This document shows positions 977 to 64,000 of a DNA stretch of 64,000 bases, in pieces. This DNA comes from a virus. Location: the IMG/VR virus record IMGVR_UViG_3300031857_000027; one strand, given 5' to 3'. The notes under the pieces were generated by a model, which was not told the origin of the DNA, searched no databases, and saw only the letters and a list, made by a program, of their open reading frames with translations. A program made the position numbers and the translations under genes. The first letter of the stretch is position 1; every line of letters begins with the position of its first letter.

Positions 977-1653
977 AGGTCACGCCCCACATTTGCTTTG
1001 TTGTCTGTAATGCCGAATGTCTTCAGTTGTTCTTTTTCCATCACGACCATGCTGTTATAGAATGATACAGAATAAAGATTGTTATACACCGCAAGTGCTT
1101 CATCAGAAATTGGTGAGCCTTGAAAGTGTTGTTGATTCACAATATCTGTCACACGCTTACAGTGTTCAGTAAATGTGCCAGCACCACGGAATACACCACC
1201 CCATGGCTGTGGCCAATAACTTGTGTGAGTGTCTTCACAAATATAAACACCACCCTCTTTGATGTGTGTAAATACACTGTTCAATGTAGTGATTTGATGA
1301 TTCATTACATGAGAGCCGTCATCAATCACAATATCAAAATTGTTTTGTGTTTTCAAGAATTCTGACCAGAAGGCAGCGTCACCTTGGTCACCCATCACAA
1401 CTTTAACATCACCGTTGTATTCATATTTCAAACACTCTTCATTGATATCAACTGCCACAACTGAAGTATCAGGACCAAAATACTTTAGCCACATTTCAAT
1501 TGAACCACCACCAAGCACACCGATTTCTAAGATGCGTGGTGCTTTACCTACAAACTTCTTTAGGTGTCTTTCATAAACATCAAAGTAACCTGACCATTTT
1601 GTAGATGGCTTTTCTAAGTCCCAAAATAATTCTTTAATTCTATTTGTCGTCAT
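973..1653 (-). CDS. Class I SAM-dependent methyltransferase, sugar O-methyltransferase-like
   Basis: ILEIGVLGGGS motif I, VDIN, FDIVIDDGSH, GGVYICED; start taken at MTTNRIK (1653). Confidence 0.8.
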   Translation of the reverse strand: MTTNRIKELFWDLEKPSTKWSGYFDVYERHLKKFVGKAPRILEIGVLGGGSIEMWLKYFGPDTSVVAVDINEECLKYEYNGDVKVVMGDQGDAAFWSEFLKTQNNFDIVIDDGSHVMNHQITTLNSVFTHIKEGGVYICEDTHTSYWPQPWGGVFRGAGTFTEHCKRVTDIVNQQHFQGSPISDEALAVYNNLYSVSFYNSMVVMEKEQLKTFGITDNKANVGRDL

Positions 1654-2482
1654 ATTTTGCCTCAATCACTTTCTTCCATTCTGGCACACGATCATACTGA
1701 TGTACAATAGTATACTCTATTCCTGTTGAAGTTACAACCTTGTCACCTTCTAATTTCGGTGATGGTTCTAAAAGATGTGGTCTGAATTGATCAATCTTAC
1801 TTGGATCGGCAGTTGTGCCAAGTTGACATGCCCAACCATATTCTGACTGAGTGTACATTGACGAATCAATATATGGGTGTCTTGAAATCATTACATTGAA
1901 TACTGCTTGATCAACGATTGGTATTGGTCTGTTGATGCAGTTTAGAAACAACTGCAAAGTCAAATCCCTCATTGCATAACCACGACCAGCAAGAACACCG
2001 ACATTAAAGATCGTGTTGTTCTTAAAATCTTCGTAGATGCCTTGACCATAACACTGTGTTAGATTCTCACGACCCCATGGCTCATCTTTATATTTCATGC
2101 TTTCGGAAGAAAATACCAAATCTTCTTGTTTGGATAGATTTTCTTCTAACCATGTAACAGGGTTCTTTTGAAAGATAACATCTCGTACATCTGTGGTAAT
2201 TACATAACGATAGTCATTATCTTTGAGCAGTTTGTAAATGTGAATGAAACGCTCAACATGCACCATCAGTTGAGACTGATAAGTTAGATTGCCGTCTTTG
2301 TCTTGATTGAACGCTATGATTGAGAAGCCTGCGTCAGTTACCTTCTGTGCAGTTTCTTTATCGCAGTTCATGAGAATCAGAACTTTATCACCCTCAAAGC
2401 CTGATTCATTGATGGAATTAATCCAATATTTTAATTTTGCCCAGTCATAATTTGTTGAGCATCCCACGATCACATCTTTCAT
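1640..2482 (-). CDS. Putative GT-A fold glycosyltransferase
   Basis: ERF..Y, TDVRDVIFQKNP acidic motif, NVGVLAG, DQAVFN, IVHQYDR. Confidence 0.6.
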   Translation of the reverse strand: MKDVIVGCSTNYDWAKLKYWINSINESGFEGDKVLILMNCDKETAQKVTDAGFSIIAFNQDKDGNLTYQSQLMVHVERFIHIYKLLKDNDYRYVITTDVRDVIFQKNPVTWLEENLSKQEDLVFSSESMKYKDEPWGRENLTQCYGQGIYEDFKNNTIFNVGVLAGRGYAMRDLTLQLFLNCINRPIPIVDQAVFNVMISRHPYIDSSMYTQSEYGWACQLGTTADPSKIDQFRPHLLEPSPKLEGDKVVTSTGIEYTIVHQYDRVPEWKKVIEAKYDDK

Positions 2483-2497
2483 AATATCTCCAGTGAT

Positions 2498-2683
2498 TTA
2501 TTTTATGTCAGTTTCTTTCCAACTTCCTGTAAACTTTTTATATTGTTGTGTGCTTTGACCAGGAGTGTCATCAAGATATTTAGCAGTGAGTTCAGGTCTT
2601 CCCCACTCACCTCCGCCGGCCTTAGATACAAACTCTTGTCTGCTGTCTTTGTTTGCCTTTAAATAATCTTTGAATGTTTTCAT
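2498..2683 (-). CDS. Small hypothetical protein, possible internal head protein
   Basis: Start MKTFKDYLK at 2683 (ATGA overlap with the erpA stop); N-terminus resembles the T4 capsid-targeting sequence. Confidence 0.55.
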   Translation of the reverse strand: MKTFKDYLKANKDSRQEFVSKAGGGEWGRPELTAKYLDDTPGQSTQQYKKFTGSWKETDIK

Positions 2684-3003
2684 ATCGTGAATGAAGAACC
2701 GCAACCACACGTTGCAGTTACGTTTGGATTTTTGATTGTAAATGAAGCACCCATCATATCTTCTTTATAATCAATCACCGCTTCATTCATGTATTGCATA
2801 CTCATACTATCTATAACAACTCCAATACCATCTCTTTCAAATGTAAAGTCATCATCTGCTGCCGGCAATTCTTCTATTGAGAAGCCATATTGGAAACCAG
2901 AACAACCACCACCCTGAACGAACACACGTAGTTTGAGTGAAGGGTCTTCTTCAGCAATGATAGATTTAATTTTCTTTACAGCAGTGTCAGATATTGTAAC
3001 CAT
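2680..3003 (-). CDS. erpA: Iron-sulfur cluster insertion protein ErpA (A-type carrier, HesB/IscA family)
   Basis: LRVFVQGGGCSGFQYGF and C-terminal TCGCGSSF with all three conserved Cys. Confidence 0.92.
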   Translation of the reverse strand: MVTISDTAVKKIKSIIAEEDPSLKLRVFVQGGGCSGFQYGFSIEELPAADDDFTFERDGIGVVIDSMSMQYMNEAVIDYKEDMMGASFTIKNPNVTATCGCGSSFTI

Positions 3004-13053: not shown

Positions 13054-13548
13054 TTACTCCTCACATTGAATAACTTTAATTTCACATTTTTTTAGAAAAT
13101 TGATACCTGAATCACTTCTGTAGGCGTTTTTGTAGTAAACCTCCTTGATTCCTGACTGATATATCATCTTAGCACATTCCAAGCACGGTGCGTGGGTAAT
13201 AAACATTGTTGCCCCATCACTTGAGTTTGTTGACCGAGAAACTTTAGCAATAGCATTAGATTCGGCATGTAGAACTTCTGGTTTAGACGTTAACCGTGTC
13301 CAACCATGAGCAGTTTCGGTATAACCATTGGCAATCATCCATTCCGGTGTCTCATAACATTCATCTTTGAGGACATATAAAGTTTCTTCACAGTTGTTAT
13401 CCCAACCAGATGGCATGCCGTTATATCCGATACCAATGATGGTATTGTCTTTGACGATTACACAACCTACATGTAATCTACGAGCAGTTGAAAGTTCAGC
13501 ATAAACGCTGGCCGCTTTCATATGGGCTTTTACGTATTTTTCTTTCAT
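13054..13548 (-). CDS. cd: dCMP deaminase
   Basis: VGCVIVK, GYNG, HAESNA and PCLEC zinc motifs. Confidence 0.93.
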   Translation of the reverse strand: MKEKYVKAHMKAASVYAELSTARRLHVGCVIVKDNTIIGIGYNGMPSGWDNNCEETLYVLKDECYETPEWMIANGYTETAHGWTRLTSKPEVLHAESNAIAKVSRSTNSSDGATMFITHAPCLECAKMIYQSGIKEVYYKNAYRSDSGINFLKKCEIKVIQCEE

Positions 13549-13600
13549 TATAAGTAAGCACTCACTTCATGCATGGCGCACGACGAAAAAATCGTTCCGA

Positions 13601-14416
13601 CTATTCCAAAATGACAAGTGACGTTCTAGCCACGTTTACGTTGTTGGCGTGTAGGAAGAATGGTAAAAATCTTTCACCTAAAAAACCTGGATATCTCCAA
13701 GGCAATGGCTCAGATGTTGTTGTAGTTGTTGGATATACTCTGCTTGTGTTCTGCCACACATATTCTAAAAGTTCAAATAACTCAGAAGCATATTTTCTGA
13801 ACAGTTGCTTACGCATGACATAACATGTTTCAAAACTGGCGCCGTTGTCATCCCACCAACTCATCTTGTCTCTGTAATCAGGTAATAACTTTTCAATACC
13901 CTCTAAAAACAGATTCAAATACTCTGCTGGTTGTGACTGTAGATACTGATTACGAACTGAGTATGGCAATGGTGTGATGTGATTCGTAATCGCATCGTGT
14001 GTCTCAAGTAGTTTGAGTGCGGCCGCCTTCTGTTCATCGGATGACATGTAATTAGCACTTTCTTGTGTGGCCGGCAACGATGATTTCAGAATATTTTTAC
14101 CCAAGTCACCTTTGAAGTCCAAATAACGACGATATGTTGTACAGCCAATGAAGTCTGCACGACCATTATGCCACAAGTAATACTCGGATGCTTGTTGTGC
14201 TAATGCACGAAGAAACTCATCTTCACTACACATGCTGTAATAGTGACGATAGCCATATACACTTTTATGTTGTGATGTGTTGATCCAATTGCCGGGACCT
14301 GGTGGTTGCCACTTGTATGGCGCATGAGAACCAGCGTATGCTGCTTTCAGCCAAGAGGATTCATGATTAAAAGGAAAGTCTTTATGAAAGTGACTTACCA
14401 TCAACAGATCAGTCAC
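13601..14416 (-). CDS. DUF4422-like glycosyltransferase
   Basis: DFIGCTTYRRY, YVMRKQLFRKY..ELF..L and RYPGFLGERF resemble DUF4422; probable GTG start at 14416 after GAGG. Confidence 0.65.
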   Translation of the reverse strand: MTDLLMVSHFHKDFPFNHESSWLKAAYAGSHAPYKWQPPGPGNWINTSQHKSVYGYRHYYSMCSEDEFLRALAQQASEYYLWHNGRADFIGCTTYRRYLDFKGDLGKNILKSSLPATQESANYMSSDEQKAAALKLLETHDAITNHITPLPYSVRNQYLQSQPAEYLNLFLEGIEKLLPDYRDKMSWWDDNGASFETCYVMRKQLFRKYASELFELLEYVWQNTSRVYPTTTTTSEPLPWRYPGFLGERFLPFFLHANNVNVARTSLVILE

Positions 14417-14573
14417 CTTGCACCTCTTCTTTTTTCTTCTTCTTGAATTCAATTCGTGGAGCAATGATTGCTTGAATCATCTCACGCTTGTAGTCAGTCT
14501 TGTTTTTACCAGAAAGACCTGAAAGTAGAACCTTCAGTTCTTTGCCCATTTTAAAGTTTGAATTTGATTTCAT
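14409..14573 (-). CDS. Small basic hypothetical protein (54 aa), not in the ORF track
   Basis: MKSNSNFKMGKELKVLLSGLSGKNKTDYKREMIQAIIAPRIEFKKKKKEEVQGD; TAATG overlap with the upstream stop; fills the gap exactly. Confidence 0.7.
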   Translation of the reverse strand: MKSNSNFKMGKELKVLLSGLSGKNKTDYKREMIQAIIAPRIEFKKKKKEEVQGD

Positions 14574-15151
14574 TACCATGTCCAAGCAACATAAGAGTAT
14601 CGTGTGCCTTTCGTCACCAGATCGACTCTGTGTGGATAAAGGAAGTTTGATGGGAAAATCATAATCTCACCAGACTTCAAAGTTATAGGAGTGTCTTGCC
14701 AAAATACCAAATCACCACCATCATAGCCGCCATTCAAACCACCAAGAATAGTAAGTGTTGGTATACCCTTACGTTGACCATCAAACATTGAATGAATGTG
14801 GTCGCAGTGAAGTTTCATTTGTGTATCTTCACGATAACGGTTGAAACGAACTTCAGTGAATCCTTGCCAAGATTGATACCAATTACAACCCCAATCAGTA
14901 AGTTCTTTGTGATATCTCTGCAAGCCATCCCATATTCTTTGCATGATGTACTCTTTGTGCTTTACATTTGACCATGTAACAGCAAGTTCATGCTCATACG
15001 AATGATTAGAATTATTCTGATAGTCGTAGAACTGGTGCGTCTGAAACTGTCCTTCAACTAGTTCAAGTTCGTCAACAGTTTCTTGACACACTTCTGGTGT
15101 GAGCCAATCGGAATAGATTTTGAGATATGATCGTAGGTCTTTGTCCATCAT
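14573..15151 (-). CDS. 2OG-Fe(II) oxygenase (prolyl-4-hydroxylase-like)
   Basis: RFNRY...HCDH...GGDL...IFPSNFLYPHRV...RYS; start at MMDKDL after GAAGGA. Confidence 0.9.
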   Translation of the reverse strand: MMDKDLRSYLKIYSDWLTPEVCQETVDELELVEGQFQTHQFYDYQNNSNHSYEHELAVTWSNVKHKEYIMQRIWDGLQRYHKELTDWGCNWYQSWQGFTEVRFNRYREDTQMKLHCDHIHSMFDGQRKGIPTLTILGGLNGGYDGGDLVFWQDTPITLKSGEIMIFPSNFLYPHRVDLVTKGTRYSYVAWTW

Positions 15152-15159
15152 GTATCCTT

Positions 15160-15183
15160 CAAAGTGGGGCTTGCGCCCCACTG
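15160..15183 (-). terminator. GC-rich hairpin with GCAA tetraloop after hsp20 (weak terminator or stabiliser)
   Basis: AGTGGGGC-GCAA-GCCCCACT followed by only a short T-run. Confidence 0.55.
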
Positions 15184-15184
15184 T

Positions 15185-15670
15185 TTATGCAGCCTGTTTT
15201 TCTTCTTGTAGAAGTTTAGGCTCAAAAAATTTCAGTTCATTACCAATTTCAATGCGTTTTGGCTTTTGATGTTCTGGAATAACATTAATAAGACCAACAC
15301 GCAGAATACCATCTTTGAGTTCTGAACTATGTACTTCAATAGTGTCAGCAATGGTAATTGTTTTTGTGAAGTTACGTGCAGCAATACCTCTGTGTAGATA
15401 TTCTGCTTGTCCCATATCTTCATCTTCTTTATTACCTTTGATTACCAAAGTATTTTTTTCTCTGGTAATTTCAATGTCGTCTTTACTGAAGCCTGCAACC
15501 GCAAGTTCAATAATGTAACGATTGTCATCTACTCTGATAATATTGTGATACGGAAAAGTATTTCCAGTATGTTGTGCTGGCGTAGCAGACAACAACTTCT
15601 CAATGTCATCAAAGAAACGATCAAAGCCAAGAGTATGATGTAGTAAAGGACTAATACGAGTAATAGTCAT
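15185..15670 (-). CDS. Small heat shock protein Hsp20 (IbpA-like)
   Basis: GFDRFF, FPYHNI, IELAVAGF, YLHRGIAARNF, LKDGIL, PEHQKPKRIEI. Confidence 0.95.
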   Translation of the reverse strand: MTITRISPLLHHTLGFDRFFDDIEKLLSATPAQHTGNTFPYHNIIRVDDNRYIIELAVAGFSKDDIEITREKNTLVIKGNKEDEDMGQAEYLHRGIAARNFTKTITIADTIEVHSSELKDGILRVGLINVIPEHQKPKRIEIGNELKFFEPKLLQEEKQAA

Positions 15671-31551: not shown

Positions 31552-32091
31552 TTACTCTACATCATCATCTAGAAATTGTTCAAGACCCTCCGACTTCTTT
31601 TCTTTTTTCTTTTTCTTATTTTCCTCAAAGTTATGAATGAACTCTGAGATGTTATCATACAACTCAAACTGCTTCATGTTACCATTTTCATCTTCATACA
31701 TCTCACCCTCATCAAGCAAACCAAACTGTTGTGTGGCTTTATACTTCACATACAGTTGCTTCTTCTCACGCATAATTCTACGCAGAAAAGCATAGTAAAT
31801 TATCTGTGTGAAGTAAGCAAATGGATTCTTTGATTTGGCAGGATCAAAGTTACGAAAATACATCAGACAGTTTTCAACACCATCTGATATCATCTCATCA
31901 CGGTATGTGTATGAAATAAAGTTTGGCTTACGTGATAGGTGTTCTGCAATCTTTAGAAAGCATTCGCCAATGTAATCTGGTATCTTTGGCTCTGGTTTAT
32001 TTTCTTCTTTAGCAGTGGCACATTCTGTACGATACTTAACAAGTGCTGCTAGAAAATCTGCATTATTAACGTAATGATTTGCTGTTGTCAT
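31552..32091 (-). CDS. 55: Late-transcription sigma factor gp55
   Basis: HYVNN, KIAEHLS, NF..YTY..EMISDG, NPFAYFTQI. Confidence 0.96.
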   Translation of the reverse strand: MTTANHYVNNADFLAALVKYRTECATAKEENKPEPKIPDYIGECFLKIAEHLSRKPNFISYTYRDEMISDGVENCLMYFRNFDPAKSKNPFAYFTQIIYYAFLRRIMREKKQLYVKYKATQQFGLLDEGEMYEDENGNMKQFELYDNISEFIHNFEENKKKKKEKKSEGLEQFLDDDVE

Positions 32092-33023
32092 TATACATTA
32101 CCGTAAATGTTATTCTTCAAGTATGTATAGCCCTTGATAAGTTCTTCTACACCATCATCTAGTGTATGATAAGGTGCCCAACCTGTTGATTCTAGTTTTT
32201 CATTTGACACAATATAGTTACGTTGATCTGGGTCTTTTTTGATATCACCCCCTACCACTGTGAAAGTAGGAATATGTTTCTTGATAATGTCACAGAGTTC
32301 TAGTTTAGATACATTTGCCGATGACAAACCTACATTATAGATATTGCTCTTCATGTAATCAAACTGAAAGAGTGCATGTAAGAATGCTTCACATACATCA
32401 CGTACATGAATGTAGTTACGTTTGAAATGACCTTCAAAGATAATTACATAGCCATCATTGACTGCACGATAGACCAAATCATTTACTAGTAAGTCTGAAC
32501 GCATACGTGGTGACATACCAAACACGGTAGCAAGACGGTAACTGATTGAGTTCTCACGCTCCATCAATCTTTCTTCTACTGCAACCTTATCAATCGCATA
32601 CTTAGAGATTGGCCGCAGTGGTGATTCTTCTGTGCAGAAATTGTTTTCATCACCTGTGCCATATGCTGAATTGGTTGTAGGCATAATGATACGCTGTTCA
32701 TTTGAAACAGCATTTAACATCCAGAACATTGCATCTTTGTTTGTCGTGTCTGCACCAACAACATCTTTATTACACAGCGGCGCACCAACAAGTGCTGCAA
32801 GTGGTATAACAACATCTGCTTTTTTCAACAGAGGCGTCATATGATATGGATTACGAATGTCTCCATTTACAATGGTAAGTTTTTTGTTTTCACAAAGATG
32901 ATTCAGTCCAGTTTGCTTGTACATGAAGTTGTCAATGACAGTCACTTCATGTCCTGTCTGAAGTAAATACTCTGTTAAAATGCAGCCAATATAGCCAGCG
33001 CCGCCAGTCACCAATATGTTCAT
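32091..33023 (-). CDS. NAD-dependent epimerase/dehydratase/reductase (extended SDR)
   Basis: TGGAGYIG, YxxxK (YAIDK), RLATVFG, RNYIHVRD. Confidence 0.92.
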   Translation of the reverse strand: MNILVTGGAGYIGCILTEYLLQTGHEVTVIDNFMYKQTGLNHLCENKKLTIVNGDIRNPYHMTPLLKKADVVIPLAALVGAPLCNKDVVGADTTNKDAMFWMLNAVSNEQRIIMPTTNSAYGTGDENNFCTEESPLRPISKYAIDKVAVEERLMERENSISYRLATVFGMSPRMRSDLLVNDLVYRAVNDGYVIIFEGHFKRNYIHVRDVCEAFLHALFQFDYMKSNIYNVGLSSANVSKLELCDIIKKHIPTFTVVGGDIKKDPDQRNYIVSNEKLESTGWAPYHTLDDGVEELIKGYTYLKNNIYGNV

Positions 33024-33024
33024 A

Positions 33025-34206
33025 TTATACCCTATTCAGTACAGTTGTGATTTCGTCAATTGCCATCTTACTTAATGTTGGATAGTTACCAATGTAGAAC
33101 GAATAAAAGTGCATGTGATCAGTGTTTGGAAAGTTCTTGTAATGATCTTCTGGCACAATGTTCTTCAAGTATGGTTGACGCAGTTGATTGCCGCCACCAG
33201 CAGAACCACGACGAAACTCAATTTGTTCATCACGCATCTTACCCATCAATCTTTGAGCAAACTCTTTGTTTGCATACTCTGGCTGCAATACAATGTTAAA
33301 GGCATAGTTGCTGCAACCAATCAATCTAAAATCAACCTTATACTTTTTCTGGTCTAGTTTAGCCAAAAAGTAAAATAGATTCTCATTACGTAGTCTAACA
33401 TTTTCATCCAAATGTTTCAACTGATTTTGACCAAGTATACCGCCAATCTCATTGTTACGCATGTTGTATGCTGGATAGGCAAAGATAAAGTCAGAGTTCA
33501 ACTCAGGGTACTCTGCCTTATACTTCTCGGACATTTCTTCTGATGCACACTCACGAACCATACCGTGTGAACGAAGCATACGAACTGTGTGATATACTTC
33601 AGGGTCGTTTGTACATACCATACCACCTTCAATGGTAGACATGTGATGTGCAAAGTAGAAAGAGAAGTTAGACATCCAACCATAACTACCCAACAGTTTA
33701 CCGTTGTGTGTTGCACCATGTGATTCACAGACATCTTCAATCAAAGGTATGCTACGATGACGTAGAACTTCCAATACTCTGTCAGATAAACAATCAAAAC
33801 CTTGTGCATACGTAATAAACACTGCTCTTGTTTTATCAGTGATTGCATTGAGTATGCCAAAATCATTCATGCCAAGTGTATCCAAATCAATGTCAACAAA
33901 TACTGGTGTGAAACCACATTGAATAATAGATGCGATATCAGATACCCATGTGAATGGTGGCACAATCACTTCACCACCTTCTGGATGTTTGATCTTCAAC
34001 ATTGTCATTGACAATAGATTAGCAGAAGCACCTGAGTTGACAAACACAGAATATTTTACACCAAGCCATTTACTCCATGCTTCTTCAAAAGCACGGCACT
34101 CAGGACCATTTGTAAGTTTAGGATTATCTTTTTTAAGATGTTCTATTACCAAATCTAAATCTTCTCTAGTAATATTGTCTGACATTAAAGGATACTTCAT
34201 TCTCAC
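33025..34206 (-). CDS. PLP/PMP-dependent DegT-fold enzyme, ColD-type sugar 3-dehydratase
   Basis: VNSGASAN, EDVCESHGA, SFYFAHHMSTIEGG with His at the usual Schiff-base Lys position. Confidence 0.8.
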   Translation of the reverse strand: MRMKYPLMSDNITREDLDLVIEHLKKDNPKLTNGPECRAFEEAWSKWLGVKYSVFVNSGASANLLSMTMLKIKHPEGGEVIVPPFTWVSDIASIIQCGFTPVFVDIDLDTLGMNDFGILNAITDKTRAVFITYAQGFDCLSDRVLEVLRHRSIPLIEDVCESHGATHNGKLLGSYGWMSNFSFYFAHHMSTIEGGMVCTNDPEVYHTVRMLRSHGMVRECASEEMSEKYKAEYPELNSDFIFAYPAYNMRNNEIGGILGQNQLKHLDENVRLRNENLFYFLAKLDQKKYKVDFRLIGCSNYAFNIVLQPEYANKEFAQRLMGKMRDEQIEFRRGSAGGGNQLRQPYLKNIVPEDHYKNFPNTDHMHFYSFYIGNYPTLSKMAIDEITTVLNRV

Positions 34207-35186
34207 TCCATTATAATTTTAGAGCCTTCAAAATCAAATCTGAAGGGCACCCATACATTAATTTCTGGTATTGCTTGTCTTATCTTCTCATGTGCATCAG
34301 GCGGTGCAAGAAACATAAAGAATCCACCACCACCCGCACCCATCAATTTACCACCGTATGCACCAGCATTCATTGCTTTATTGTATATTGTATCTATGTA
34401 ACTAGTTGTAACACTATCCGTGAGTTCTCTTTTCCGTTTCCACTGATAGTCTAACAACTCACCTATGTTTTCTATTTTACCATGATTTTCAAAAATATAC
34501 AATGCATTATTTGTGACTGAAGTTATTTCTTCCAATAACTTTGTAGACTTACCCTCTTTGATAGCATCAATTTGGTGTTTGGCGTGAACACTTGAAAATC
34601 TATCAATGCCTGAAAAACCTAGCATGATATGTTCTTCTAGGTTGAGTGTATAATCATCTTTAATTCTTAGGTCACGAACATTGATACCCTCATCAGATAA
34701 TTCAATGACACGAATGCCACCATAAGCCGCCATGATTTGGTCTTGTACACCAACAGACTCACCAATACAGTTCTGTTCTATATTGATAGCATCAATTGCA
34801 AGACCATACGGCGTTGGCAATTTTTTCTTTGAAGCCAGTATGGCGTGAATCAATCCAACAGTAAATGAAGAACTTGATCCAATGCCTGAACGAGCAGGTA
34901 AATCGCCGTCATGGCTAATAGAAATCCCATTAGGTATATCATAGTATTTCAAACACTCCCTTACAGAAGGATGATCTATTTGTGAAATATCTGATACGCT
35001 TTCAATTTTAGAATAGATAACTCTATTCACATAGTCAAAGTAAGGCGGTAACTTCTTTAAACTTATATAGCAGTAGTGTGCCATGGCAGCAGATATGACC
35101 TTAGAAGGTCTGTTTTGATACCATGCTGGATAATCTGTACCACCACCAAACAAAGAAAGACGATAAGGAGTTCTAGATATAATCAT
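34203..35186 (-). CDS. GHMP sugar kinase, HddA (heptose-7-phosphate kinase)-like
   Basis: RLSLFGGGTDYP, LPARSGIGSSS, GVQDQ, GGKLMGAGGGGF. Confidence 0.88.
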   Translation of the reverse strand: MIISRTPYRLSLFGGGTDYPAWYQNRPSKVISAAMAHYCYISLKKLPPYFDYVNRVIYSKIESVSDISQIDHPSVRECLKYYDIPNGISISHDGDLPARSGIGSSSSFTVGLIHAILASKKKLPTPYGLAIDAINIEQNCIGESVGVQDQIMAAYGGIRVIELSDEGINVRDLRIKDDYTLNLEEHIMLGFSGIDRFSSVHAKHQIDAIKEGKSTKLLEEITSVTNNALYIFENHGKIENIGELLDYQWKRKRELTDSVTTSYIDTIYNKAMNAGAYGGKLMGAGGGGFFMFLAPPDAHEKIRQAIPEINVWVPFRFDFEGSKIIME

Positions 35187-35713
35187 TTTTCGTTATAGTA
35201 GTCTCCGTACTCTACAAGTATCGTAGCAATACCATCTTTTCTTTCATATGCCTTTGTATATGCAGGCATAATATCTTCTGGTTCTTCTAGTCTTATCACA
35301 TCAACATTTTCACACAACATTCTAAAAGCATCGGTGTAATCACCGACATGTTGGTGTTGTGGGTGCAAAGGTCTTTCTGAGCCAATACTTGTACGAATGA
35401 TGATACGTGGTTTGTAATCAGACATCATCGTAATTTTATCAACATGATTGACAAGTTGATTTGTTGCACAGATTAAAAAATTCCATCGTGGATAAATGCT
35501 CACAGGAATAAAACCAGCAAGTGCAAGACCAAGTGTCATACCCATTTGTGTGTCTTCAAACACAGGCATTTCTAACAACTGTTCTTTTGGTACATCTTTC
35601 AATGTGTTTGTCATGGCAGTGCCAGCATACTCAACTGCTTGACCCATGAACATTACACGTGAATCTTTTGACAGCATCTCCATTGCTGCTTTGAGTTCTT
35701 CAAAGTATTTCAA
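35183..35713 (-). CDS. ThDP-dependent enzyme, E1-beta/transketolase Pyr domain only
   Basis: GQAV, EMPVFEDTQMG...GLAL.G, NQLVN, HPQHQH; only 176 aa. Confidence 0.82.
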   Translation of the reverse strand: MKYFEELKAAMEMLSKDSRVMFMGQAVEYAGTAMTNTLKDVPKEQLLEMPVFEDTQMGMTLGLALAGFIPVSIYPRWNFLICATNQLVNHVDKITMMSDYKPRIIIRTSIGSERPLHPQHQHVGDYTDAFRMLCENVDVIRLEEPEDIMPAYTKAYERKDGIATILVEYGDYYNEK

Positions 35714-36309
35714 AATTGCACCCTCATTCCTGCACCAGCATGTGGATATTTGGTTTCATATTCATAGTAATAAATGTATTCTTGGTCAAGATGTTTGTAT
35801 AATGATTGATTTAAACCCCATGTCTTCATCGTGTCTGTACACACTGACTTACCATTGTCTTCAACAATAAACTTGATAGGCAAATTATTAGCCATGCTGT
35901 ACTTTAAGTTCTCAGAAAAGACGCCCGATTCAGCAGTCATGTCACCAACAAAACAATAAACTTTTGTATCAATCTTTTTTCTCTTCATAGCCATTGCAGC
36001 ACCAACAGCAATTGGTATGTTACCACCAACGATTGCTGATGAGTAGATATTGAATTCTGGATAGCACAGTGAAATTGATTTGCCTTCCAAAATATCTTTT
36101 TCTATTTGTTCTGGTGGTACACCTTTCAGCAAACATTGATAGTGTGAACGCCATGAACAGAACACCCAATCTTTTGAACGAATATCTTTAAAGATTTTAA
36201 TCAGTTCATTTTCATTGCCATAGTAAAGATGAATTGGCGCACGAATACGAGCATTATTAAAATGCTCTGCCATCTTCTCTTCAAATTCTATAAGTTCTTG
36301 CTTAGTCAC
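35710..36309 (-). CDS. ThDP-dependent enzyme, E1-alpha-like PP domain
   Basis: HLYYGNE, WRSHY, AIVGG, ThDP motif GDMTAESG...EDN. Confidence 0.85.
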   Translation of the reverse strand: MTKQELIEFEEKMAEHFNNARIRAPIHLYYGNENELIKIFKDIRSKDWVFCSWRSHYQCLLKGVPPEQIEKDILEGKSISLCYPEFNIYSSAIVGGNIPIAVGAAMAMKRKKIDTKVYCFVGDMTAESGVFSENLKYSMANNLPIKFIVEDNGKSVCTDTMKTWGLNQSLYKHLDQEYIYYYEYETKYPHAGAGMRVQF

Positions 36310-37822
36310 CTAGTATCTTCCTCTTCAATTTAATCTTTGACATCTCTTGAATGTTCTGTCTTGATTGTGTGCCAAATTTATTCTCAACAAGATTTAGAAA
36401 TGGTTCATGTGAAAAGTATTTGTGCCATGCTTCATCACGAAACTTTAAAACTTCAGCACCAGTTAGTGCTTTTGTTCTGAGTGGTTTACAATCATATGAA
36501 AGAAATGCAAACTCTTCAAATGTCTCTGGCAATTCCCATTTATTATTAATTGCTTCCATGTATAGTGGACTGCCAGGTAATGCCATTGCTGCATAGAAGT
36601 TTGCATGTTCACAATTCAACTCAAGTGCAAGGTCAAGTGTCTCTTGCATTGTTTCTTGTGTGTCTTCTGGAAAACCAAACATGTAATTACCAAGTACGTT
36701 GATGCCTGCATCTTTGATATCTTGTACAACTTCACGAATGTCAACTTGCTTAAAGCGACCTTTATCAATCTCTAAACGAACTTGTGGATTACCTGCTTCA
36801 ATACCAAGTGCAAGCCAATTAACACCTGCTTCTTTAAATAGTTCAAGTTGATCCTTGCGAACAGAATCAACACGTGCATATGCCCAAAAGTTAAACTTCA
36901 TACCACGATCAACAAGACCTTGTAAAATAGGCACATAGTATTTCTTGTTCAGAAAGAACATTTCATCAGTCAAACGAACTGTACGCACACCGTTTTCCCA
37001 CAGAAACTCAAATTCTTTGAGCATCAATTCTGGTGAAAAGAAACGCATACCACGTGAGTCTGACGATACTGTACCTTGCTGATACGATGTACGATTCACG
37101 ATGTTGATCATACAGAAGTTGCAACCAAATGAGCAGCCTAATGATGTTGAGATTGCGGCAAACGGTGTACGATCTTCATCTAAGAAGTTTGTATGCCAAT
37201 AATGTGCCCTGTACTTGTCTAAAAGATTTGTTTTCTTTGGTAGCAAATCCCATGCATAACCAGGCATTACACGATCCATGTCTTCTGTTTTGACAATTTC
37301 TCCTGGTGCACCTGTTGCAGCAAAGCCATGCTTCTTATAAACAAGACCACGAACTTTATCCAAGTGATCTTTGTAGTTTGTTTGAAGTAGGTCTAGTAAA
37401 CCATATACACCTTCATTGATGAATACAAAATCAACATAAGGTAAACCAATCACATCATACGGCAATGCAGATGCATGAGAGCCAATGAATACAGTTTTGA
37501 TTGAAGGCCGAATGAGTTTGAGTTGTCTTGCTAGTCTTGATGCACCAATCATCATTGTGGTGCCTGAGTTTGGATTTTGTCCATAAAGAACAAACACTGC
37601 TATGTCTGTATTCGTAGCAGAGATACGATGAGCCGAATGCTCAAGGTCTGGTGATGGGTCCGCATCAAAGTCTAAGATACAAGGATCATGTCCTTCTTTA
37701 CGAACTGCTTGCGCCAAAAGGAGTGCCCATGTCGGCGGCTCAATAGCCGAATATTTTTGTGACAGGTCCTGATAGGCCTGCTTGGCACTGCTTGGTATCA
37801 CAAATGTCACCACTTTTGACAT
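36302..37822 (-). CDS. Cobalamin-dependent radical SAM enzyme
   Basis: N-terminal B12-binding domain (EPPTW...GSHAS...NEG), CSFGCNFC, DEMF, GIEAG, MFGFP, PGSPLY. Confidence 0.9.
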   Translation of the reverse strand: MSKVVTFVIPSSAKQAYQDLSQKYSAIEPPTWALLLAQAVRKEGHDPCILDFDADPSPDLEHSAHRISATNTDIAVFVLYGQNPNSGTTMMIGASRLARQLKLIRPSIKTVFIGSHASALPYDVIGLPYVDFVFINEGVYGLLDLLQTNYKDHLDKVRGLVYKKHGFAATGAPGEIVKTEDMDRVMPGYAWDLLPKKTNLLDKYRAHYWHTNFLDEDRTPFAAISTSLGCSFGCNFCMINIVNRTSYQQGTVSSDSRGMRFFSPELMLKEFEFLWENGVRTVRLTDEMFFLNKKYYVPILQGLVDRGMKFNFWAYARVDSVRKDQLELFKEAGVNWLALGIEAGNPQVRLEIDKGRFKQVDIREVVQDIKDAGINVLGNYMFGFPEDTQETMQETLDLALELNCEHANFYAAMALPGSPLYMEAINNKWELPETFEEFAFLSYDCKPLRTKALTGAEVLKFRDEAWHKYFSHEPFLNLVENKFGTQSRQNIQEMSKIKLKRKILGD

Positions 37823-61700: not shown

Positions 61701-64000
61701 TAACCAACTGCCATTGGTATACTTGGCGGCACTGGAGGAGTTGTTTGATATTCACCCGGCGTATCTGACAAGAACAACTCTTGTCCAGCAGCCAATAATG
61801 AAGTGTTAAGTCCTCTGATTTTACCATGTATCGTTACATAACCATAATCATTATTTGCAATTGCAGTTGAAGTAACACCAACAACTTCTGCATTTGCAGC
61901 AATGTCAGCAGAAGCAAGTGCAACAGCAGGGAAGCCATTTGCTGATGCATCACCACCTATACGGGCAACTTTGCCTCTGTCAATCGTGGTACCAGAATTG
62001 TTCCATACACGAATTACTGTTTCTTGACCAAGTTGAATCGTGTTATCAGATTCGTTGTTGTATGCTAAAGTTTTTTGATCATTGTCGTAAAAAATACGAC
62101 CTTCATTTCTTGGTGGTACAGAAGATGATGTGTTTAGATCAATATACGAACCAACAAATACATTTTGTGTAGTTAGATTAGCATCAATTACAACATTAGC
62201 GGTAACTGTACCACCAAGATTTGCGTCTAATGAATTGTTAGCACGAATGAATGCTGAGTTTGAAGTATCTCTTGCAACATTATCAATACCATAGCCAATG
62301 AATGCTGTGAATTGTTTTGTAGAATCCGGAAATCTTATCTGGCCATCTGTACCAAAGTCCCATGTATTGCTTGTAGTTCCAGTGGTTTGAATATGTGCGC
62401 CACCCGGATCAACCCACATAACCGATTCGTCGGCAAAATTCATTCTTACATAACCAGCGCCACCGTTATTGTTATATAAATCAATACCATTCGGGAAACC
62501 ACTTCTACCGATATCTCCACGTGATGCTGGTAATGTTATTGTACCATCTTGAGTGAACGTGAAACTTCTTGTTGGTGAATCAAAAAGACCTTGATTCGTC
62601 TGAATAAGAACGCTAGTTTTACCATACAGCACTGCTTGACTAGCATTATCCAAATATATTCCAGTATTACCACTTTGTGCATTTGCTGTTATTGATAATA
62701 CTCCATCACCCTGATTGGTAATTCTTCCTTTGGAAGGTCCGAATATTAAAGTGCCGGGAAGAGCAAATGCACCATTTGAATGTAATTGAGCAGTGAAGCC
62801 ACTATTAACTAAGTTTGCTTTGTCAGTATTTGCTTGATTGTACGCAGCATTTGCCCAAATGAATGCAGCATTAGCATACTGACCAGTTGCATTCTGTGAG
62901 ATGTATGCCGCATTGGCGTGATCAAAAGCGGCATTCGTTTTTATAAATGCACTGTTAGCCTGAATGTATGCGGCGTTAGCAGCAGCAAAAGCACCGTTAG
63001 CGTTTGCAAAGGCAGCATTGGCTCTAGCAAAAGCACCATTGGCATTTGCGAAAGCATATGATGTGTAGACATACAGGTCTACTGTACCGTTTGCACCAAA
63101 GAAATAATTTGAGAAGATAGCATTAGCACCTGTAATGCTACCATTTGAACCCGTTGTTGTTAAAGTATTTGATGTAAGATTACCAACAATGACAACATCA
63201 CCAGTAACTTGACCACCAACGTTTGCATTGAGTGAATTGTTTGCACGAATAAATCCTGCATTTGCATGATTGAATGCGGCGTTGGACTGAATGAATCCTG
63301 AGTTTGCTTGAATATATGCAGCATTAGCAGCAGCAAAAGCACCATTGGCATTTGCAAATGCGGCATTGGCTCTAGCAAAGGCACCGTTGGCATTTGCAAA
63401 AGCAGCATTCGCATGATCAAACGCTGAGTTTGTTTTTATGAAGCCGCTATTTGCATGGATGAATGCTGCATTTGTCTGTATGAATGCTGAGTTTGCTTGA
63501 ATATAAGCAGCATTAGCAGCAGCAAATGCGCCGTTAGCATTTGCGAAAGCAGCATTCGCATGATGATACGCAGAGTTTGCTTGAATAAACCCGCTATTTG
63601 CGTAACTACCTGATGCATTCTGAAACTGAAACGCAGAGTTTGCATGAATAAATGCTGCGTTGGCTTGTTCAAATGCAGAGTTCGCACGAATACCACTTGT
63701 GTTCTGACTTGTGTATGCAGCATTCGCATGTAAGTATGCGGCATTTACATGAAAGAATGATGAATTAGCTTGAATGAATCCTGAGTTAGCATGAATATAT
63801 GCCGCATTGGCCATTGCAAGACCAGCATTTGCATTTGCAAACGAATAGTTAGCATGAAAGAATGCTGAGTTGGCTTGAATGAAACCACTATTCGCATGAT
63901 CAAACGAATAATTAGCATGTAAAAATGCGGAATTTGCTTTTACAAACGCAGAGTTGGCGTATGATGCTGGTGCCGAACCACCCAAGTCATCGTATGATAT
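58703..64000 (-). CDS. Giant fibre protein with Ala/Asn heptad repeats; 5' end lies outside the window
   Basis: Frame stays open to position 64000 (ISYDDLGGSAP...), so the TTG at 63985 is not the start; long AN(A/S)(A/G)(F/Y)xx arrays; three C-terminal beta repeats. Confidence 0.85.
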   Translation of the reverse strand: MSYDDLGGSAPASYANSAFVKANSAFLHANYSFDHANSGFIQANSAFFHANYSFANANAGLAMANAAYIHANSGFIQANSSFFHVNAAYLHANAAYTSQNTSGIRANSAFEQANAAFIHANSAFQFQNASGSYANSGFIQANSAYHHANAAFANANGAFAAANAAYIQANSAFIQTNAAFIHANSGFIKTNSAFDHANAAFANANGAFARANAAFANANGAFAAANAAYIQANSGFIQSNAAFNHANAGFIRANNSLNANVGGQVTGDVVIVGNLTSNTLTTTGSNGSITGANAIFSNYFFGANGTVDLYVYTSYAFANANGAFARANAAFANANGAFAAANAAYIQANSAFIKTNAAFDHANAAYISQNATGQYANAAFIWANAAYNQANTDKANLVNSGFTAQLHSNGAFALPGTLIFGPSKGRITNQGDGVLSITANAQSGNTGIYLDNASQAVLYGKTSVLIQTNQGLFDSPTRSFTFTQDGTITLPASRGDIGRSGFPNGIDLYNNNGGAGYVRMNFADESVMWVDPGGAHIQTTGTTSNTWDFGTDGQIRFPDSTKQFTAFIGYGIDNVARDTSNSAFIRANNSLDANLGGTVTANVVIDANLTTQNVFVGSYIDLNTSSSVPPRNEGRIFYDNDQKTLAYNNESDNTIQLGQETVIRVWNNSGTTIDRGKVARIGGDASANGFPAVALASADIAANAEVVGVTSTAIANNDYGYVTIHGKIRGLNTSLLAAGQELFLSDTPGEYQTTPPVPPSIPMAVGYVTLSDVTDGSILVYSHLMEGKNKTNGAILFGRNGAIDQDPTKLYWDYANDRLGIDTDSPQANLHVAGDGLFTGNLTITGNLVISNAQTITTDQLFVGGNNVILSANVTGTPTLNAAIIVNRGSSPNAYILWDETVNEWLAYEGSGEPGHIILANKTANSWAVYDTFEAYEKEFYPIGANLANSTNEHAKAGFATANIAENLATASFKHANSGFIQANSSYVHANAAYLSQNATGQYANAAFIHANSAYQSQNATGQYANAAFTVANGAFIHTNSAFGHANAAYQSQNATGQYANAAFIHANSGYIHVNSAFDHANAAYVSQNSTGNYANAAFANANAGLAMANAAFANANGAFASANAAFNTGNSAFIQANASFDHANAAFAAANNVFPQVQPAYDTANSAFIHANASFDKANTADQNALSAGSYANSAFVHANAAFASANNVAPQVQPAFNTANAAFIQANASFITANNADANASSAGVYANGAYAHANAAFAAANNVAPQVQPAFHTANAAFIQANAGILHAQSAFHHANAGFDAANTADDKAVTASNRANAAFIVANATTIQANAGFDHANSGFVQANSAFFHANSGFIQANASYNQANASFIVANATSSQANAAFDHANAAFASANNVAPQVQPAFNTANSAFIQANAGILHAQSAFNHANSGFIHANSSYVHANAAFNAANNASDPWVRGQANAAFIQANAAFDKANTGANAEVTTFNTTSNGAVSTYALGFTPASNSAVIVSIGGIVQTELVDYIVTRSNNSISFNEPPPAGQSIRVAGFNNVVPYFLDIANSAGAVVSTYSAVGDGSTQAFSIGFRPESNKAIFVSIGGILQPETAYTVTPSTNTVTFVTAPGNNENIRIVGFEKINPYYIQYVSSNVSVSVFETISTGTTATFNLGFNPQARETLIVTIDGIVQSINDYTVNTALQTITLDEIPANGELVRVATMYTTANAFVIPDGSITSQKLSTSLNTSIQSAATTGKAIAMSIVFGG
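59570..61100 (-). repeat. Degenerate 21-bp (7-aa) coding tandem repeat, block 1
   Basis: Recurrent GC(A/G)TT(A/T/C/G)GC every 21 nt on the + strand. Confidence 0.85.
62820..63965 (-). repeat. Degenerate 21-bp (7-aa) coding tandem repeat, block 2
   Basis: Same periodicity; near-duplicated FANANGAFARANAAFANANGAFAAANAAYIQAN units. Confidence 0.85.

What the first reader, a model, noticed from the sequence alone, without database searches (positions are those of the whole stretch)
32091..37822. Six-gene phage operon that looks like a pathway for a branched, deoxygenated, possibly C-methylated nucleotide sugar
Seen: a tightly coupled block between uvsW and gp55 encoding a B12-dependent radical SAM enzyme, E1-alpha-like and truncated E1-beta-like ThDP subunits, an HddA-like GHMP kinase, a DegT-fold enzyme with His in place of the catalytic Lys, and an extended SDR. 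Known: the Lys-to-His change marks PMP-dependent 3-dehydratases (ColD, E1/RfbH). ThDP enzymes (YerE for yersiniose; split AviB1/AviB2 for avilamycin) add two-carbon branches to 4-keto NDP-sugars. B12 radical SAM enzymes methylate unactivated carbons or rearrange rings. Inference: the phage makes its own rare 3-deoxy, C4-branched hexose or heptose donor to decorate virion proteins, DNA or the host surface. I know of no characterised phage pathway with this combination. No clear 4,6-dehydratase is present unless the SDR does that step.
Basis: partly seen in the sequence, partly recalled or inferred. Interest (0 to 1): 0.88.

Follow-up and report, generated by a model that had tools for sequence, protein, structure and literature searches.

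The report
Phage cassette for modified heptose sugar
An uncultured T4-like aquatic phage carries six tightly packed genes, copied from a widespread but unstudied bacterial surface-sugar gene cluster, that most likely turn a seven-carbon sugar nucleotide into a 3-deoxy sugar altered by a vitamin-B1 enzyme and a vitamin-B12 radical enzyme; the sugar and its target are unknown.

Summary
Six minus-strand genes at 32091-37822 overlap or abut and lie between uvsW/DUF6561 and the late sigma factor gp55. They encode a B12-binding radical SAM enzyme, a minimal ThDP E1-alpha/E1-beta pair, an HddA-like GHMP kinase, a ColD-like DegT enzyme with His-His at the lysine position, and an extended SDR.

The SDR is not a 4,6-dehydratase. 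It matches PDB 6VO6 at E 2.6e-104, which I recall as Cj1427, the GDP-heptose C4-dehydrogenase of Campylobacter jejuni.

The cassette recurs in at least 159 phage contigs. In some, the mini-E1 pair is replaced at the same position by a split transketolase or by a long E1 pair.

All 45 bacterial loci of at least 20 kb that carry the radical SAM orthologue have a ThDP enzyme nearby, and 38 hold the complete five-function set. Most add an NTP-transferase, and many add a GDP-fucose-synthase-like reductase, GmhA, a Wzt exporter or GT9 heptosyltransferases.

Best reading: tailoring of GDP-heptose by C4 oxidation, 3-deoxygenation, ThDP two-carbon addition and a radical SAM step. The last two steps and the glycosylation target are inferred.

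The phage record lacks a cluster-type nucleotidyltransferase and GmhB, so it probably depends on the host.

This scan has already flagged the same cassette on other phage and bacterial DNA.

The parts
36302..37822 (-). B12-binding radical SAM enzyme (506 aa), first gene of the cassette
   Evidence: PF04055 at 73.1 bits and PF02310 at 38.8 bits, both over their cut-offs. C230, C234 and C237 (CxxxCxxC) are invariant in 48 homologues. The best named profiles are HpnJ at 115 bits and BchE at 93 bits, both far below their cut-offs. The nearest structure is AprD4, 6fd2, E 8.7e-13. No PHROG matches.
35710..36309 (-). Minimal ThDP enzyme, PP-domain subunit (E1-alpha-like, 199 aa)
   Evidence: E1_dh at 54.7 bits over profile positions 5-171 of 300. 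The ThDP motif GDM...EDNG aligns to the GDG...NN motif of 2-oxoacid dehydrogenase E1-alpha. It matches phrog_34187, a fused 405-aa form found in cyanophages S-SM2 and P-TIM68.
35183..35713 (-). Minimal ThDP enzyme, PYR-domain subunit (E1-beta-like, 176 aa, no C-terminal domain)
   Evidence: Transket_pyr only. The cofactor-activating Glu (MPVFED) aligns to the conserved Glu of PDH E1-beta.
34203..35186 (-). HddA-like GHMP sugar kinase (327 aa)
   Evidence: GHMP N and C domains. NCBIfam HddA profile at 138 bits, the best hit but below the 600-bit cut-off. PDB matches: 4usm (putative sugar kinase) 1.4e-30, 3k85 (heptose phosphate kinase) 7e-30, 4n3o (putative heptose 7-phosphate kinase) 7e-29.
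33025..34206 (-). ColD-like PLP/PMP-dependent sugar 3-dehydratase (393 aa)
   Evidence: DegT fold at 216.7 bits. ColD 2gms E 2.4e-52, against CDP-type E1 3bcx 5.6e-35. His-His lies at the lysine position and is conserved in the phage and bacterial orthologues.
32091..33023 (-). Extended SDR, homologue of the Cj1427-type GDP-heptose C4-dehydrogenase (310 aa)
   Evidence: PDB 6vo6/6vo8, E 2.6e-104, 351.7 bits over residues 2-309, with YxxxK conserved. The next best structure scores only 5e-19. That 6vo6 is Cj1427 rests on my memory. The Cj1427 reaction is described in PMC10680097.
37837..38253 (-). DUF6561 gene, upstream border of the variable slot
   Evidence: PF20198. It is conserved next to uvsW in all relatives, whatever fills the slot.
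31552..32091 (-). gp55 late sigma factor, downstream border of the slot, start overlapping the SDR stop
   Evidence: phrog_234, E 1.5e-63. In relatives without a cassette it directly follows DUF6561 (L180, L181, L183, L214).
13601..14464 (-). DUF4422 protein (287 aa), tentative candidate transferase for the product
   Evidence: PF14393 at 70.7 bits. It is 43% identical (E 5e-80) to the DUF4422 gene that sits inside the cassette of variant L191. A match was found in two other cassette-bearing records, G406 and G408; the G406 match is interrupted by two TAA stops. It was not found in a complete and an 85%-complete relative that carry a different cassette. The sample is small, so this is a lead only.

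Best explanation
The six genes are a horizontally acquired tailoring module for a nucleotide-activated (probably GDP-linked) heptose. They were taken from a widespread, uncharacterised bacterial surface-polysaccharide cluster.

Proposed order of steps:
1. The HddA-like kinase phosphorylates D-glycero-D-manno-heptose 7-phosphate at C1. That substrate comes from sedoheptulose 7-phosphate through GmhA, and a GmhA-like gene lies elsewhere in the phage. Host enzymes supply the phosphatase and the nucleotidyltransferase.
2. The Cj1427-like SDR oxidises C4 of GDP-heptose without removing the 6-OH.
3. The ColD-like His-type enzyme removes the 3-OH, giving GDP-3-deoxy-4-keto-heptose.
4. [quoted passage not shown] In sister cassettes a split transketolase or a long E1 pair takes this place.
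5. The B12-binding radical SAM enzyme performs a radical C-C or C-H step, either methylation or ring closure/rearrangement.

The product would be used during infection to glycosylate a host or phage structure. Family assignments and co-occurrence are shown. Steps 1 to 3 follow from homology to characterised enzymes. Steps 4 and 5, their order, and the target are inferred.
For: Domain and structure-sequence matches for all six proteins.

[quoted passage not shown] The phage places homologues of these two enzymes side by side.

The cassette sits at the same place in related phage contigs (159 stretches encode a relative of the radical SAM enzyme).

Three different ThDP enzymes occupy the same position, which argues for a ThDP-specific tailoring step:
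- the mini E1ab pair;
- a split transketolase of 258 + 314 aa;
- a long E1ab pair of 270 + 303 aa.

Bacterial orthologues are 50-59% identical for the radical SAM enzyme and up to 71% for ColD-like. In the 45 loci of at least 20 kb:
- all 45 have a ThDP enzyme near the radical SAM gene;
- 38 have the full five-function set, within a median span of 8.1 kb;
- 41 have an NTP-transferase;
- 26 have a GDP-fucose-synthase-like reductase (7ll6, E 1.5e-99);
- 18 have GmhA/SIS, 13 have Wzt, 13 have NUDIX and 9 have GT9.

About half of the bacterial clusters, and all the phage cassettes, lack any 4-reductase. Something other than reduction must therefore consume the 4-keto group.

PDH-E1-like pairs (AviB1/B2, Pau11/12) and YerE are the two known ways to add a C2 branch to 4-keto sugars (PMC4425429; PMC9306805).
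Against: - Nothing is shown biochemically.
- All matches to NCBIfam equivalog models are far below their cut-offs.
- No cluster-type nucleotidyltransferase or GmhB was found in the phage record. Its one NTP_transferase is unrelated and belongs to another cluster.
- Where a GDP-fucose-synthase-like 4-reductase is present in bacteria, C4 may be reduced rather than branched.
- An Azospirillum plasmid carries a 40%-identical radical SAM gene with a kinase, NUDIX and a GDP-fucose synthase. No ThDP or ColD gene is annotated in the region, and PLSDB gene tables are incomplete. So the radical SAM step may not need the ThDP product.
- The split-transketolase variant keeps some residues that align to phosphate-binding positions of true transketolases. 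It could handle sugar phosphates.
- That 6vo6 is Cj1427 could not be checked in the held papers.
Confidence: 0.6

Rival explanations
1. The cassette makes a plain 3-deoxy-heptose, a heptose analogue of colitose. The ThDP enzyme only boosts precursor supply: transketolase-like production of sedoheptulose 7-phosphate. The radical SAM enzyme C-methylates the sugar. There is no C4 branch.
For: - One cassette variant carries a split transketolase whose nearest structure is a genuine split transketolase (6yaj, E 1.4e-23).
- 26 of 45 bacterial clusters have a GDP-fucose-synthase-like epimerase/reductase. With the C4-dehydrogenase and the 3-dehydratase, this forms a complete colitose-like trio.
- Cyanophages S-SM2 and P-TIM68 place a fused relative of the ThDP pair among GmhA, kinase and heptose-adenylyltransferase genes.
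Against: - The window's enzyme is E1-like, not transketolase-like, and is cut down to the two cofactor domains. E1 enzymes decarboxylate 2-oxoacids.
- To my knowledge, characterised GDP-heptose clusters need no dedicated transketolase.
- The phage cassettes and about half the bacterial clusters lack a reductase, which would leave a reactive 4-keto sugar.
- All 45 long bacterial loci link the radical SAM and ThDP genes. That is odd for a mere precursor-supply enzyme.
Confidence: 0.17
2. The cassette makes a group for DNA hypermodification, or a small-molecule metabolite, rather than a glycan building block.
For: - It lies in the replication/recombination module (uvsY, uvsW, gp55, gp47, gp46), not among structural genes.
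- No glycosyltransferase lies inside this cassette.
- The genome also encodes several 2OG-Fe(II) oxygenases and a dCMP deaminase.
Against: - Bacterial orthologous clusters sit with a Wzt ABC exporter, GT9 and GT2 transferases. That is surface-polysaccharide context.
- A sister phage cassette contains a DUF4422 gene.
- Other contents of the same slot are also NDP-sugar genes: a GMD-like SDR with a sugar C-methyltransferase, and a DegT with an SDR.
Confidence: 0.08
3. The ThDP pair is an ordinary 2-oxoacid dehydrogenase E1 that works with host E2 and E3, unrelated to its neighbours.
For: The best profile hits are PDH E1 alpha and beta.
Against: - The alpha subunit covers only half of the E1 profile, and the beta subunit lacks the C-terminal domain.
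- Scores are far below the equivalog cut-offs: 86.9 against 393.85 bits and 44.4 against 321 bits.
- The pair is swapped for a split transketolase at the same position.
- It co-occurs with the sugar genes in 23 of the 45 long bacterial loci; the other 22 have a transketolase (20) or a distant E1 (2).
Confidence: 0.02

Closest known systems
Campylobacter jejuni capsular GDP-heptose modification pathways (GmhA, HddA, GmhB, HddC; Cj1427 C4-dehydrogenase; HS:5 C3-dehydratase; Fcl-like C4-reductases)
   Same: The kinase is HddA-like. The SDR is a close homologue of the structure I recall as Cj1427. The 3-dehydratase is ColD/HS:5-type. Bacterial versions of the cluster add GmhA, an NTP-transferase and a GDP-fucose-synthase-like reductase. 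Cj1427 plus the C3-dehydratase gives GDP-3-deoxy-4-keto-heptose in vitro (PMC10680097).
   Different: C. jejuni has no ThDP enzyme or B12 radical SAM enzyme in these pathways. The Cj1427 plus 3-dehydratase combination was an artificial mix there, whereas here it is the native gene pairing. The phage lacks GmhB, HddC and a reductase.
ThDP-dependent C4 branching of 3-deoxy-4-keto NDP-sugars: YerE/ErwE (yersiniose, erwiniose) and PDH-E1-like AviB1/AviB2 and Pau11/Pau12 (eurekanate, paulomycose)
   Same: A 3-dehydratase makes a 3-deoxy-4-keto sugar, followed by a ThDP enzyme. The alpha/beta split resembles AviB1/B2 and Pau11/12.
   Different: YerE belongs to another ThDP fold family, a single-chain flavoprotein. 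Pau11/12 are full-length at 325 and 345 aa, against 199 and 176 aa here. The known acceptors are 6-deoxy hexoses on CDP or dTDP, not a GDP-heptose. No direct sequence comparison with AviB1/B2 was possible here.
Colitose pathway (GDP-mannose 4,6-dehydratase, ColD, ColC)
   Same: The 3-dehydratase is closest to ColD. The carrier nucleotide is probably GDP. Many bacterial clusters hold a ColC/Fcl-like enzyme.
   Different: There is no 4,6-dehydratase; a C4-dehydrogenase takes its place. The scaffold is a heptose, and two extra enzymes are present.
B12-binding radical SAM enzymes acting on sugars or cyclitols (HpnJ, BchE-like cyclases, GenK/Fom3-type methylases; AprD4 as nearest structure)
   Same: The domain architecture and the CxxxCxxC motif. 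The best full-length profile similarity is to HpnJ and BchE.
   Different: All scores are far below family cut-offs (115 against 577.6 bits for HpnJ). No member is known to act on a GDP-heptose. The reaction type cannot be read from the sequence.

Membership tests
B12-binding (class B type) radical SAM | CxxxCxxC cluster motif in a radical SAM core | tested here: met
   PF04055 at 73.1 bits. C230, C234 and C237 are invariant in the alignments.
B12-binding (class B type) radical SAM | N-terminal cobalamin-binding domain | tested here: met
   PF02310 at 38.8 bits against a cut-off of 32.1, residues 26-141.
B12-binding (class B type) radical SAM | Methyl transfer through methylcobalamin | not testable with these tools
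   The best profiles are the non-methylating HpnJ and BchE. Methylase profiles match mainly the core. This is not decisive.
ColD / E1 type sugar 3-dehydratase | DegT (fold type I aminotransferase) fold | tested here: met
   PF01041 at 216.7 bits.
ColD / E1 type sugar 3-dehydratase | His in place of the Schiff-base Lys | tested here: met
   AHHMSTIEGG aligns to ColD's SHHIATMEGG. The PDB variant 3b8x reads SNH at this spot, marking the first His. The motif is conserved in the relatives.
ColD / E1 type sugar 3-dehydratase | ColD subtype rather than the E1/E3-dependent CDP subtype | tested here: met
   ColD E 2.4e-52 against E1 5.6e-35. I did not check for E1's iron-sulfur cysteines.
Cj1427-type GDP-heptose C4-dehydrogenase | Close sequence kinship to the solved enzyme, with YxxxK | tested here: met
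   6vo6, E 2.6e-104 over the full length. The next structure scores 5e-19. The identity of the entry is from memory.
Cj1427-type GDP-heptose C4-dehydrogenase | [quoted passage not shown] | not testable with these tools
   Needs an enzyme assay.
HddA (heptose 7-phosphate kinase) | Score over the NCBIfam equivalog cut-off | tested here: not met
   138 bits against a cut-off of 600, although it is the top hit and covers the full length. I therefore call it HddA-like only.
HddA (heptose 7-phosphate kinase) | Genomic company of GmhA and a sugar-1-phosphate nucleotidyltransferase | tested here: met
   In the bacterial clusters, 41 of 45 have an NTP-transferase and 18 of 45 have SIS. The phage has a SIS gene elsewhere.
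2-oxoacid dehydrogenase E1 | Full-length alpha and beta subunits, the beta with a C-terminal domain | tested here: not met
   The alpha subunit matches profile positions 5-171 of 300. The beta subunit has Transket_pyr only. Scores are far below the cut-offs.
ThDP enzyme (general) | GDG-type diphosphate-binding motif and cofactor-activating Glu | tested here: met
   GDM...EDNG in the alpha subunit. Glu in MPVFED in the beta subunit. Bacterial orthologues show GDM (17) or GDG (5).
AviB1/AviB2-type sugar C2-branching enzymes | PDH-E1-like alpha/beta pair encoded among genes that make a 4-keto sugar | tested here: met
   The family is described in PMC4425429.
AviB1/AviB2-type sugar C2-branching enzymes | Direct sequence kinship to AviB1/AviB2 | not tested
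   No reference sequence was available through the tools.
YerE-type branching enzymes | Single-chain acetolactate-synthase-like ThDP flavoprotein | tested here: not met
   No TPP_enzyme_N or TPP_enzyme_M domain. The architecture is a two-subunit E1 or transketolase type.

The most novel reading that the evidence does not exclude
The module makes a nine-carbon carbocyclic sugar of the caryose type (4,8-cyclo-3,9-dideoxy-nonose). Heptose C1-C7 would be 3-deoxygenated. The ThDP enzyme would add C8-C9 from pyruvate onto the C4 ketone. The HpnJ-like B12 radical SAM enzyme would then close the C7-C8 bond. Each of the five enzyme types would have exactly one job and no reductase would be needed, which matches the phage's minimal gene set. 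The biosynthesis of caryose is unknown (PMC9092360). If true, phages would carry a pathway for a carbocyclic sugar, and a widespread bacterial surface sugar would be explained.
Probability: 0.12. Interest if true: 0.9.

Novelty: new variant of a known kind. Interest (0 to 1): 0.72.

Why it matters
- **Unknown product.** Homologues of the same gene set occur in methanotrophs, Nitrospira, Verrucomicrobiota, rhizobia, pseudomonads and other bacteria. About 2% of sampled Burkholderiales species have a radical SAM homologue. The gene set is also abundant in aquatic T4-like phages. Yet no product is known. It should be a new surface sugar, built with an unusually small ThDP enzyme and a B12 radical SAM enzyme of unknown reaction type.
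- **Phage biology.** The cassette sits in a slot that also takes other sugar cassettes or is empty. This points to a fast-changing glycan function, such as host-surface remodelling, exclusion of competing phages, or virion decoration.
- **Tractability.** Several cultured bacteria carry the cluster, so the chemistry can be tested directly.

Tried and rejected
- **DNA and protein searches of isolated phages.** No nucleotide match was found. No phage carries the full set. Only cyanophages S-SM2 and P-TIM68 have a fused relative of the ThDP pair.
- **Profile scan with the 48-sequence alignment.** A 15-sequence alignment worked.
- **Caryose test.** I tried to see whether the caryose producer (Burkholderia/Trinickia caryophylli) has the cluster. 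The genome search gives no genus names for genomes reached through loci. I obtained only a prevalence figure: 9 of 401 Burkholderiales species have a homologue at E <= 1e-60.
- **Bradyrhizose.** Considered and set aside. Its candidate 11-gene cluster is described around a dTDP-glucose 4,6-dehydratase, with no mention of these enzymes (PMC4743980).
- **Structure prediction.** A single-sequence AlphaFold model of the SDR was too poor to use (pLDDT 43).
- **Confirming that 6vo6 is Cj1427.** The papers are not held and text searches found nothing relevant.
- **Promoter and terminator scan.** Promoter-like sites were no more frequent than in shuffled sequence. No convincing terminator lies inside the cassette.
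- **Extra genes in the phage.** The phage's own NTP_transferase is unrelated to the cluster type. The phage's other extended SDR is only 23% identical to the Fcl-like reductase. The GmhA-like gene does not co-vary with the cassette in the records searched.

Full report
**1. What is there**

The window is one arm of a T4-like myovirus genome. It comes from an IMG/VR record of 133 kb that CheckV rates 75% complete. Its UvsW is about 53% identical to those of pelagimyophages and cyanomyophages.

All large genes run on the minus strand. Pfam confirms each family call:
- B12-binding plus Radical_SAM.
- A short E1_dh protein.
- A protein with Transket_pyr only.
- A GHMP kinase.
- A DegT protein.
- An extended SDR.

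The upstream neighbours are DUF6561 and UvsW. The downstream neighbour, whose start overlaps the SDR stop, is the late sigma factor gp55. gp47 and gp46 follow. GC content does not differ from the flanks. No convincing terminator lies inside the block.

**2. The individual enzymes**

*DegT protein.* It is closest to ColD (E 2.4e-52) and more distant from the CDP-type E1 dehydratase (5.6e-35). A His-His pair sits exactly where ColD has His188 in place of the Schiff-base lysine. The motif is found 46 times in the phage loci and in 46 of 58 bacterial orthologues.

*SDR.* It matches one solved structure far better than any other: 6vo6/6vo8, E 2.6e-104 over its whole length, against 5e-19 for the next. 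[quoted passage not shown] I could not confirm the entry's identity in the held papers. The enzyme's reaction is described in PMC10680097.

*Kinase.* It is HddA-like. HddA is the best NCBIfam profile, though far below its cut-off. The PDB matches are three heptose-phosphate kinases and one putative sugar kinase.

*ThDP pair.* It keeps the diphosphate-binding motif (GDM...EDNG) and the cofactor-activating glutamate. It is cut down to the two cofactor domains, and the beta subunit has no C-terminal domain.

*Radical SAM enzyme.* It has the CxxxCxxC motif and a cobalamin-binding domain. The best full-length profile similarity is to HpnJ and BchE. The nearest structure is AprD4. None comes near a family cut-off.

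**3. The cassette in phages**

The radical SAM protein found 159 related stretches in IMG/VR. The 80 best are 76-95% identical. In them the order uvsW, DUF6561, radical SAM, ThDP, kinase, dehydratase, SDR, gp55, gp47, gp46 is kept wherever the contig reaches far enough.

In roughly a third of these loci the mini-E1 pair is replaced, at the same position, by a split transketolase of 258 + 314 aa. Starting from UvsW instead shows that the DUF6561|gp55 junction is a variable slot. It can hold:
- nothing (L180, L181, L183, L214);
- the E1 cassette;
- the transketolase cassette;
- a third version: cupin, a 42%-identical radical SAM, DJ-1, long E1 alpha/beta and DUF4422, followed by the same kinase, dehydratase and SDR (L191);
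- unrelated sugar cassettes, for example a 2OG oxygenase with a GMD-like SDR and a sugar C-methyltransferase in L189.

No isolated phage in the 2025 GenBank collection carries the set, and the radical SAM protein matches no PHROG. Cyanophages S-SM2 and P-TIM68 have a fused relative of the ThDP pair inside heptose/LPS gene islands.

**4. The bacterial counterpart**

The 80 best are 50-59% identical to the phage radical SAM enzyme. They come from Methylomonas, Methylomicrobium, Methylotuvimicrobium, Pseudomonas turukhanskensis, Nitrospira, many Verrucomicrobiota, Rhizobium, Bradyrhizobium, Chlorobiaceae, Planctomycetes, Anaerolineae and others.

Orthologues of the other five phage proteins lie beside it, at up to 71% identity. 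In the 45 loci of at least 20 kb:
- every one has a ThDP enzyme near the radical SAM gene: 23 mini-E1, 20 split transketolase, 2 distant E1;
- 38 have the whole five-function set within a median of 8.1 kb.

The usual extra members are an NTP-transferase (41), a GDP-fucose-synthase-like epimerase/reductase (26; 7ll6, E 1.5e-99), GmhA/SIS (18), NUDIX (13), a Wzt exporter with its carbohydrate-binding domain (13) and GT9 heptosyltransferases (9). This is the signature of a GDP-heptose-derived sugar destined for an ABC-exported surface polysaccharide.

In a sample of 401 Burkholderiales species, 9 had a radical SAM homologue at E <= 1e-60.

**5. What the phage has and lacks**

Outside the cassette the phage encodes a GmhA-like SIS protein (G000:C1:90447-91070). 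It also encodes a DUF4422 protein at window 13601-14464, which is 43% identical to the DUF4422 gene inside the L191 cassette.

A DUF4422 match was found in two other cassette-bearing records that reach that region; one of the two is interrupted by two TAA stops. It was not found in a complete and an 85%-complete relative with a different cassette. This is a small sample and only a lead.

No GmhB, GT9 or cluster-type nucleotidyltransferase was found. The phage therefore probably relies on host enzymes. Its host may itself own the pathway. A SAR11 single-cell contig holds GT2, the radical SAM gene and the E1 pair (L086).

**6. Mechanism**

Steps 1 to 3 of the proposed route are anomeric phosphorylation, C4 oxidation and 3-deoxygenation. 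They rest on homology to characterised enzymes, and on the published in-vitro result that Cj1427 plus a C3-dehydratase yields GDP-3-deoxy-4-keto-heptose.

The ThDP step is inferred from four points:
- Three different ThDP enzymes are interchangeable at one position.
- They always accompany the radical SAM gene.
- The phage cassettes and about half the bacterial clusters contain no reductase to consume the 4-keto group.
- 3-deoxy-4-keto sugars are the acceptors of the YerE-type branching enzymes, and PDH-E1-like pairs add the same kind of two-carbon branch to 4-keto sugars.

The radical SAM reaction cannot be read from the sequence. Methylation, ring closure and rearrangement all remain open.

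There is contrary evidence. Many bacterial clusters have an Fcl-like reductase that could simply reduce C4. An Azospirillum plasmid has a 40%-identical radical SAM gene with a kinase, NUDIX and a GDP-fucose synthase, and no ThDP or ColD gene is annotated there.

**7. A more novel possibility**

Seven heptose carbons plus two from pyruvate, with 3-deoxygenation, a tertiary C4 and a radical C7-C8 closure, give exactly the constitution of caryose (4,8-cyclo-3,9-dideoxy-nonose). Its biosynthesis is unknown. I could not test whether the caryose producer has the cluster. I give this reading about 12%.

**8. Novelty and earlier notes**

No paper in the held library describes this gene combination. 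The pelagimyophage survey mentions only 'cassettes related to radical SAM proteins' and LPS genes.

This scan has flagged the same cassette before on other phage genomes, in the same uvsW-gp55 slot, and on bacterial genomes. Follow-up agents reached similar readings. I reached mine before reading those notes. I tested one of their leads here, the distant glycosyltransferase that comes and goes with the cassette.

Noticed in passing
window 263-1665 and beyond the window's left edge (L004:93-3164; L167:1742-6992 = G000:C1:61.6-70 kb): A second coupled sugar- or cyclitol-like cluster. In order: methyltransferase, DUF7796, NTP_transferase (nearest structure 4evw), APH-like kinase, a 3-dehydroquinate-synthase-like sugar-phosphate cyclase (378 aa), a short-chain dehydrogenase, an unknown 235-aa protein, and a 900-aa cytidylyltransferase-like plus zeta-toxin-like kinase protein. 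A cyclase with a kinase and a nucleotidyltransferase recalls NDP-cyclitol pathways fed by sedoheptulose 7-phosphate.
   Followed up: partly
DUF6561|gp55 junction, window 32091/37837; loci L180, L189, L191, L197, L212: The slot is a hot-spot. In close relatives (UvsW 79-98% identical) it is empty or holds one of at least five different sugar-gene cassettes.
   Followed up: yes
P0123 (818 aa) and other long homologues of the radical SAM protein (P0122-P0125, P0128, P0131): Several homologues carry an insert of about 270-400 aa just after the CxxxCxxC motif. In P0123 it is an intein (Intein_splicing/Hint, residues 247-543).
   Followed up: partly
window 2680-3003 (-): A phage-encoded IscA-type iron-sulfur cluster assembly protein (PF01521, E 2e-20). 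It could serve the radical SAM enzyme.
   Followed up: no
G000:C1:90447-91070 (L166:6448-7071) and neighbours: A GmhA-like SIS gene lies apart from the cassette, near a SegE-type GIY-YIG homing endonuclease. A D-Ala-D-Ala carboxypeptidase (Peptidase_S11) and a 2OG-Fe(II) oxygenase follow. The SIS gene was not found in five related records.
   Followed up: partly
G000:C1:115319-117699 (L168:5320-7700): A family-2 glycosyltransferase and a further extended SDR, only 23% identical to the bacterial Fcl-like reductase, sit next to T4 RNase H. This is another possible sugar-handling pair.
   Followed up: partly
window 13054-15670 (-): The DUF4422 gene is flanked by a dCMP deaminase, a 2OG-Fe(II) oxygenase and an HSP20 small heat-shock protein.
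   Followed up: no
L220 (Azospirillum lipoferum 4B plasmid AZO_p6, 20.2-24.9 kb): A 40%-identical radical SAM gene sits with a kinase, a NUDIX hydrolase and a GDP-L-fucose synthase. No ThDP or ColD gene is annotated in the region, and PLSDB gene tables are incomplete. This looks like a reduced relative of the module.
   Followed up: partly
L164 (Candidatus Nanopelagicus MAG, long-read assembly): The cluster is present, but the E1-beta and DegT genes appear as several short ORFs. These may be frameshifts from long-read errors or real decay.
   Followed up: no
window 63338-64000: The last 663 bases of the window lie outside the 133-kb IMG/VR record that holds the rest, although the large fibre ORF reads through them.
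   Followed up: no
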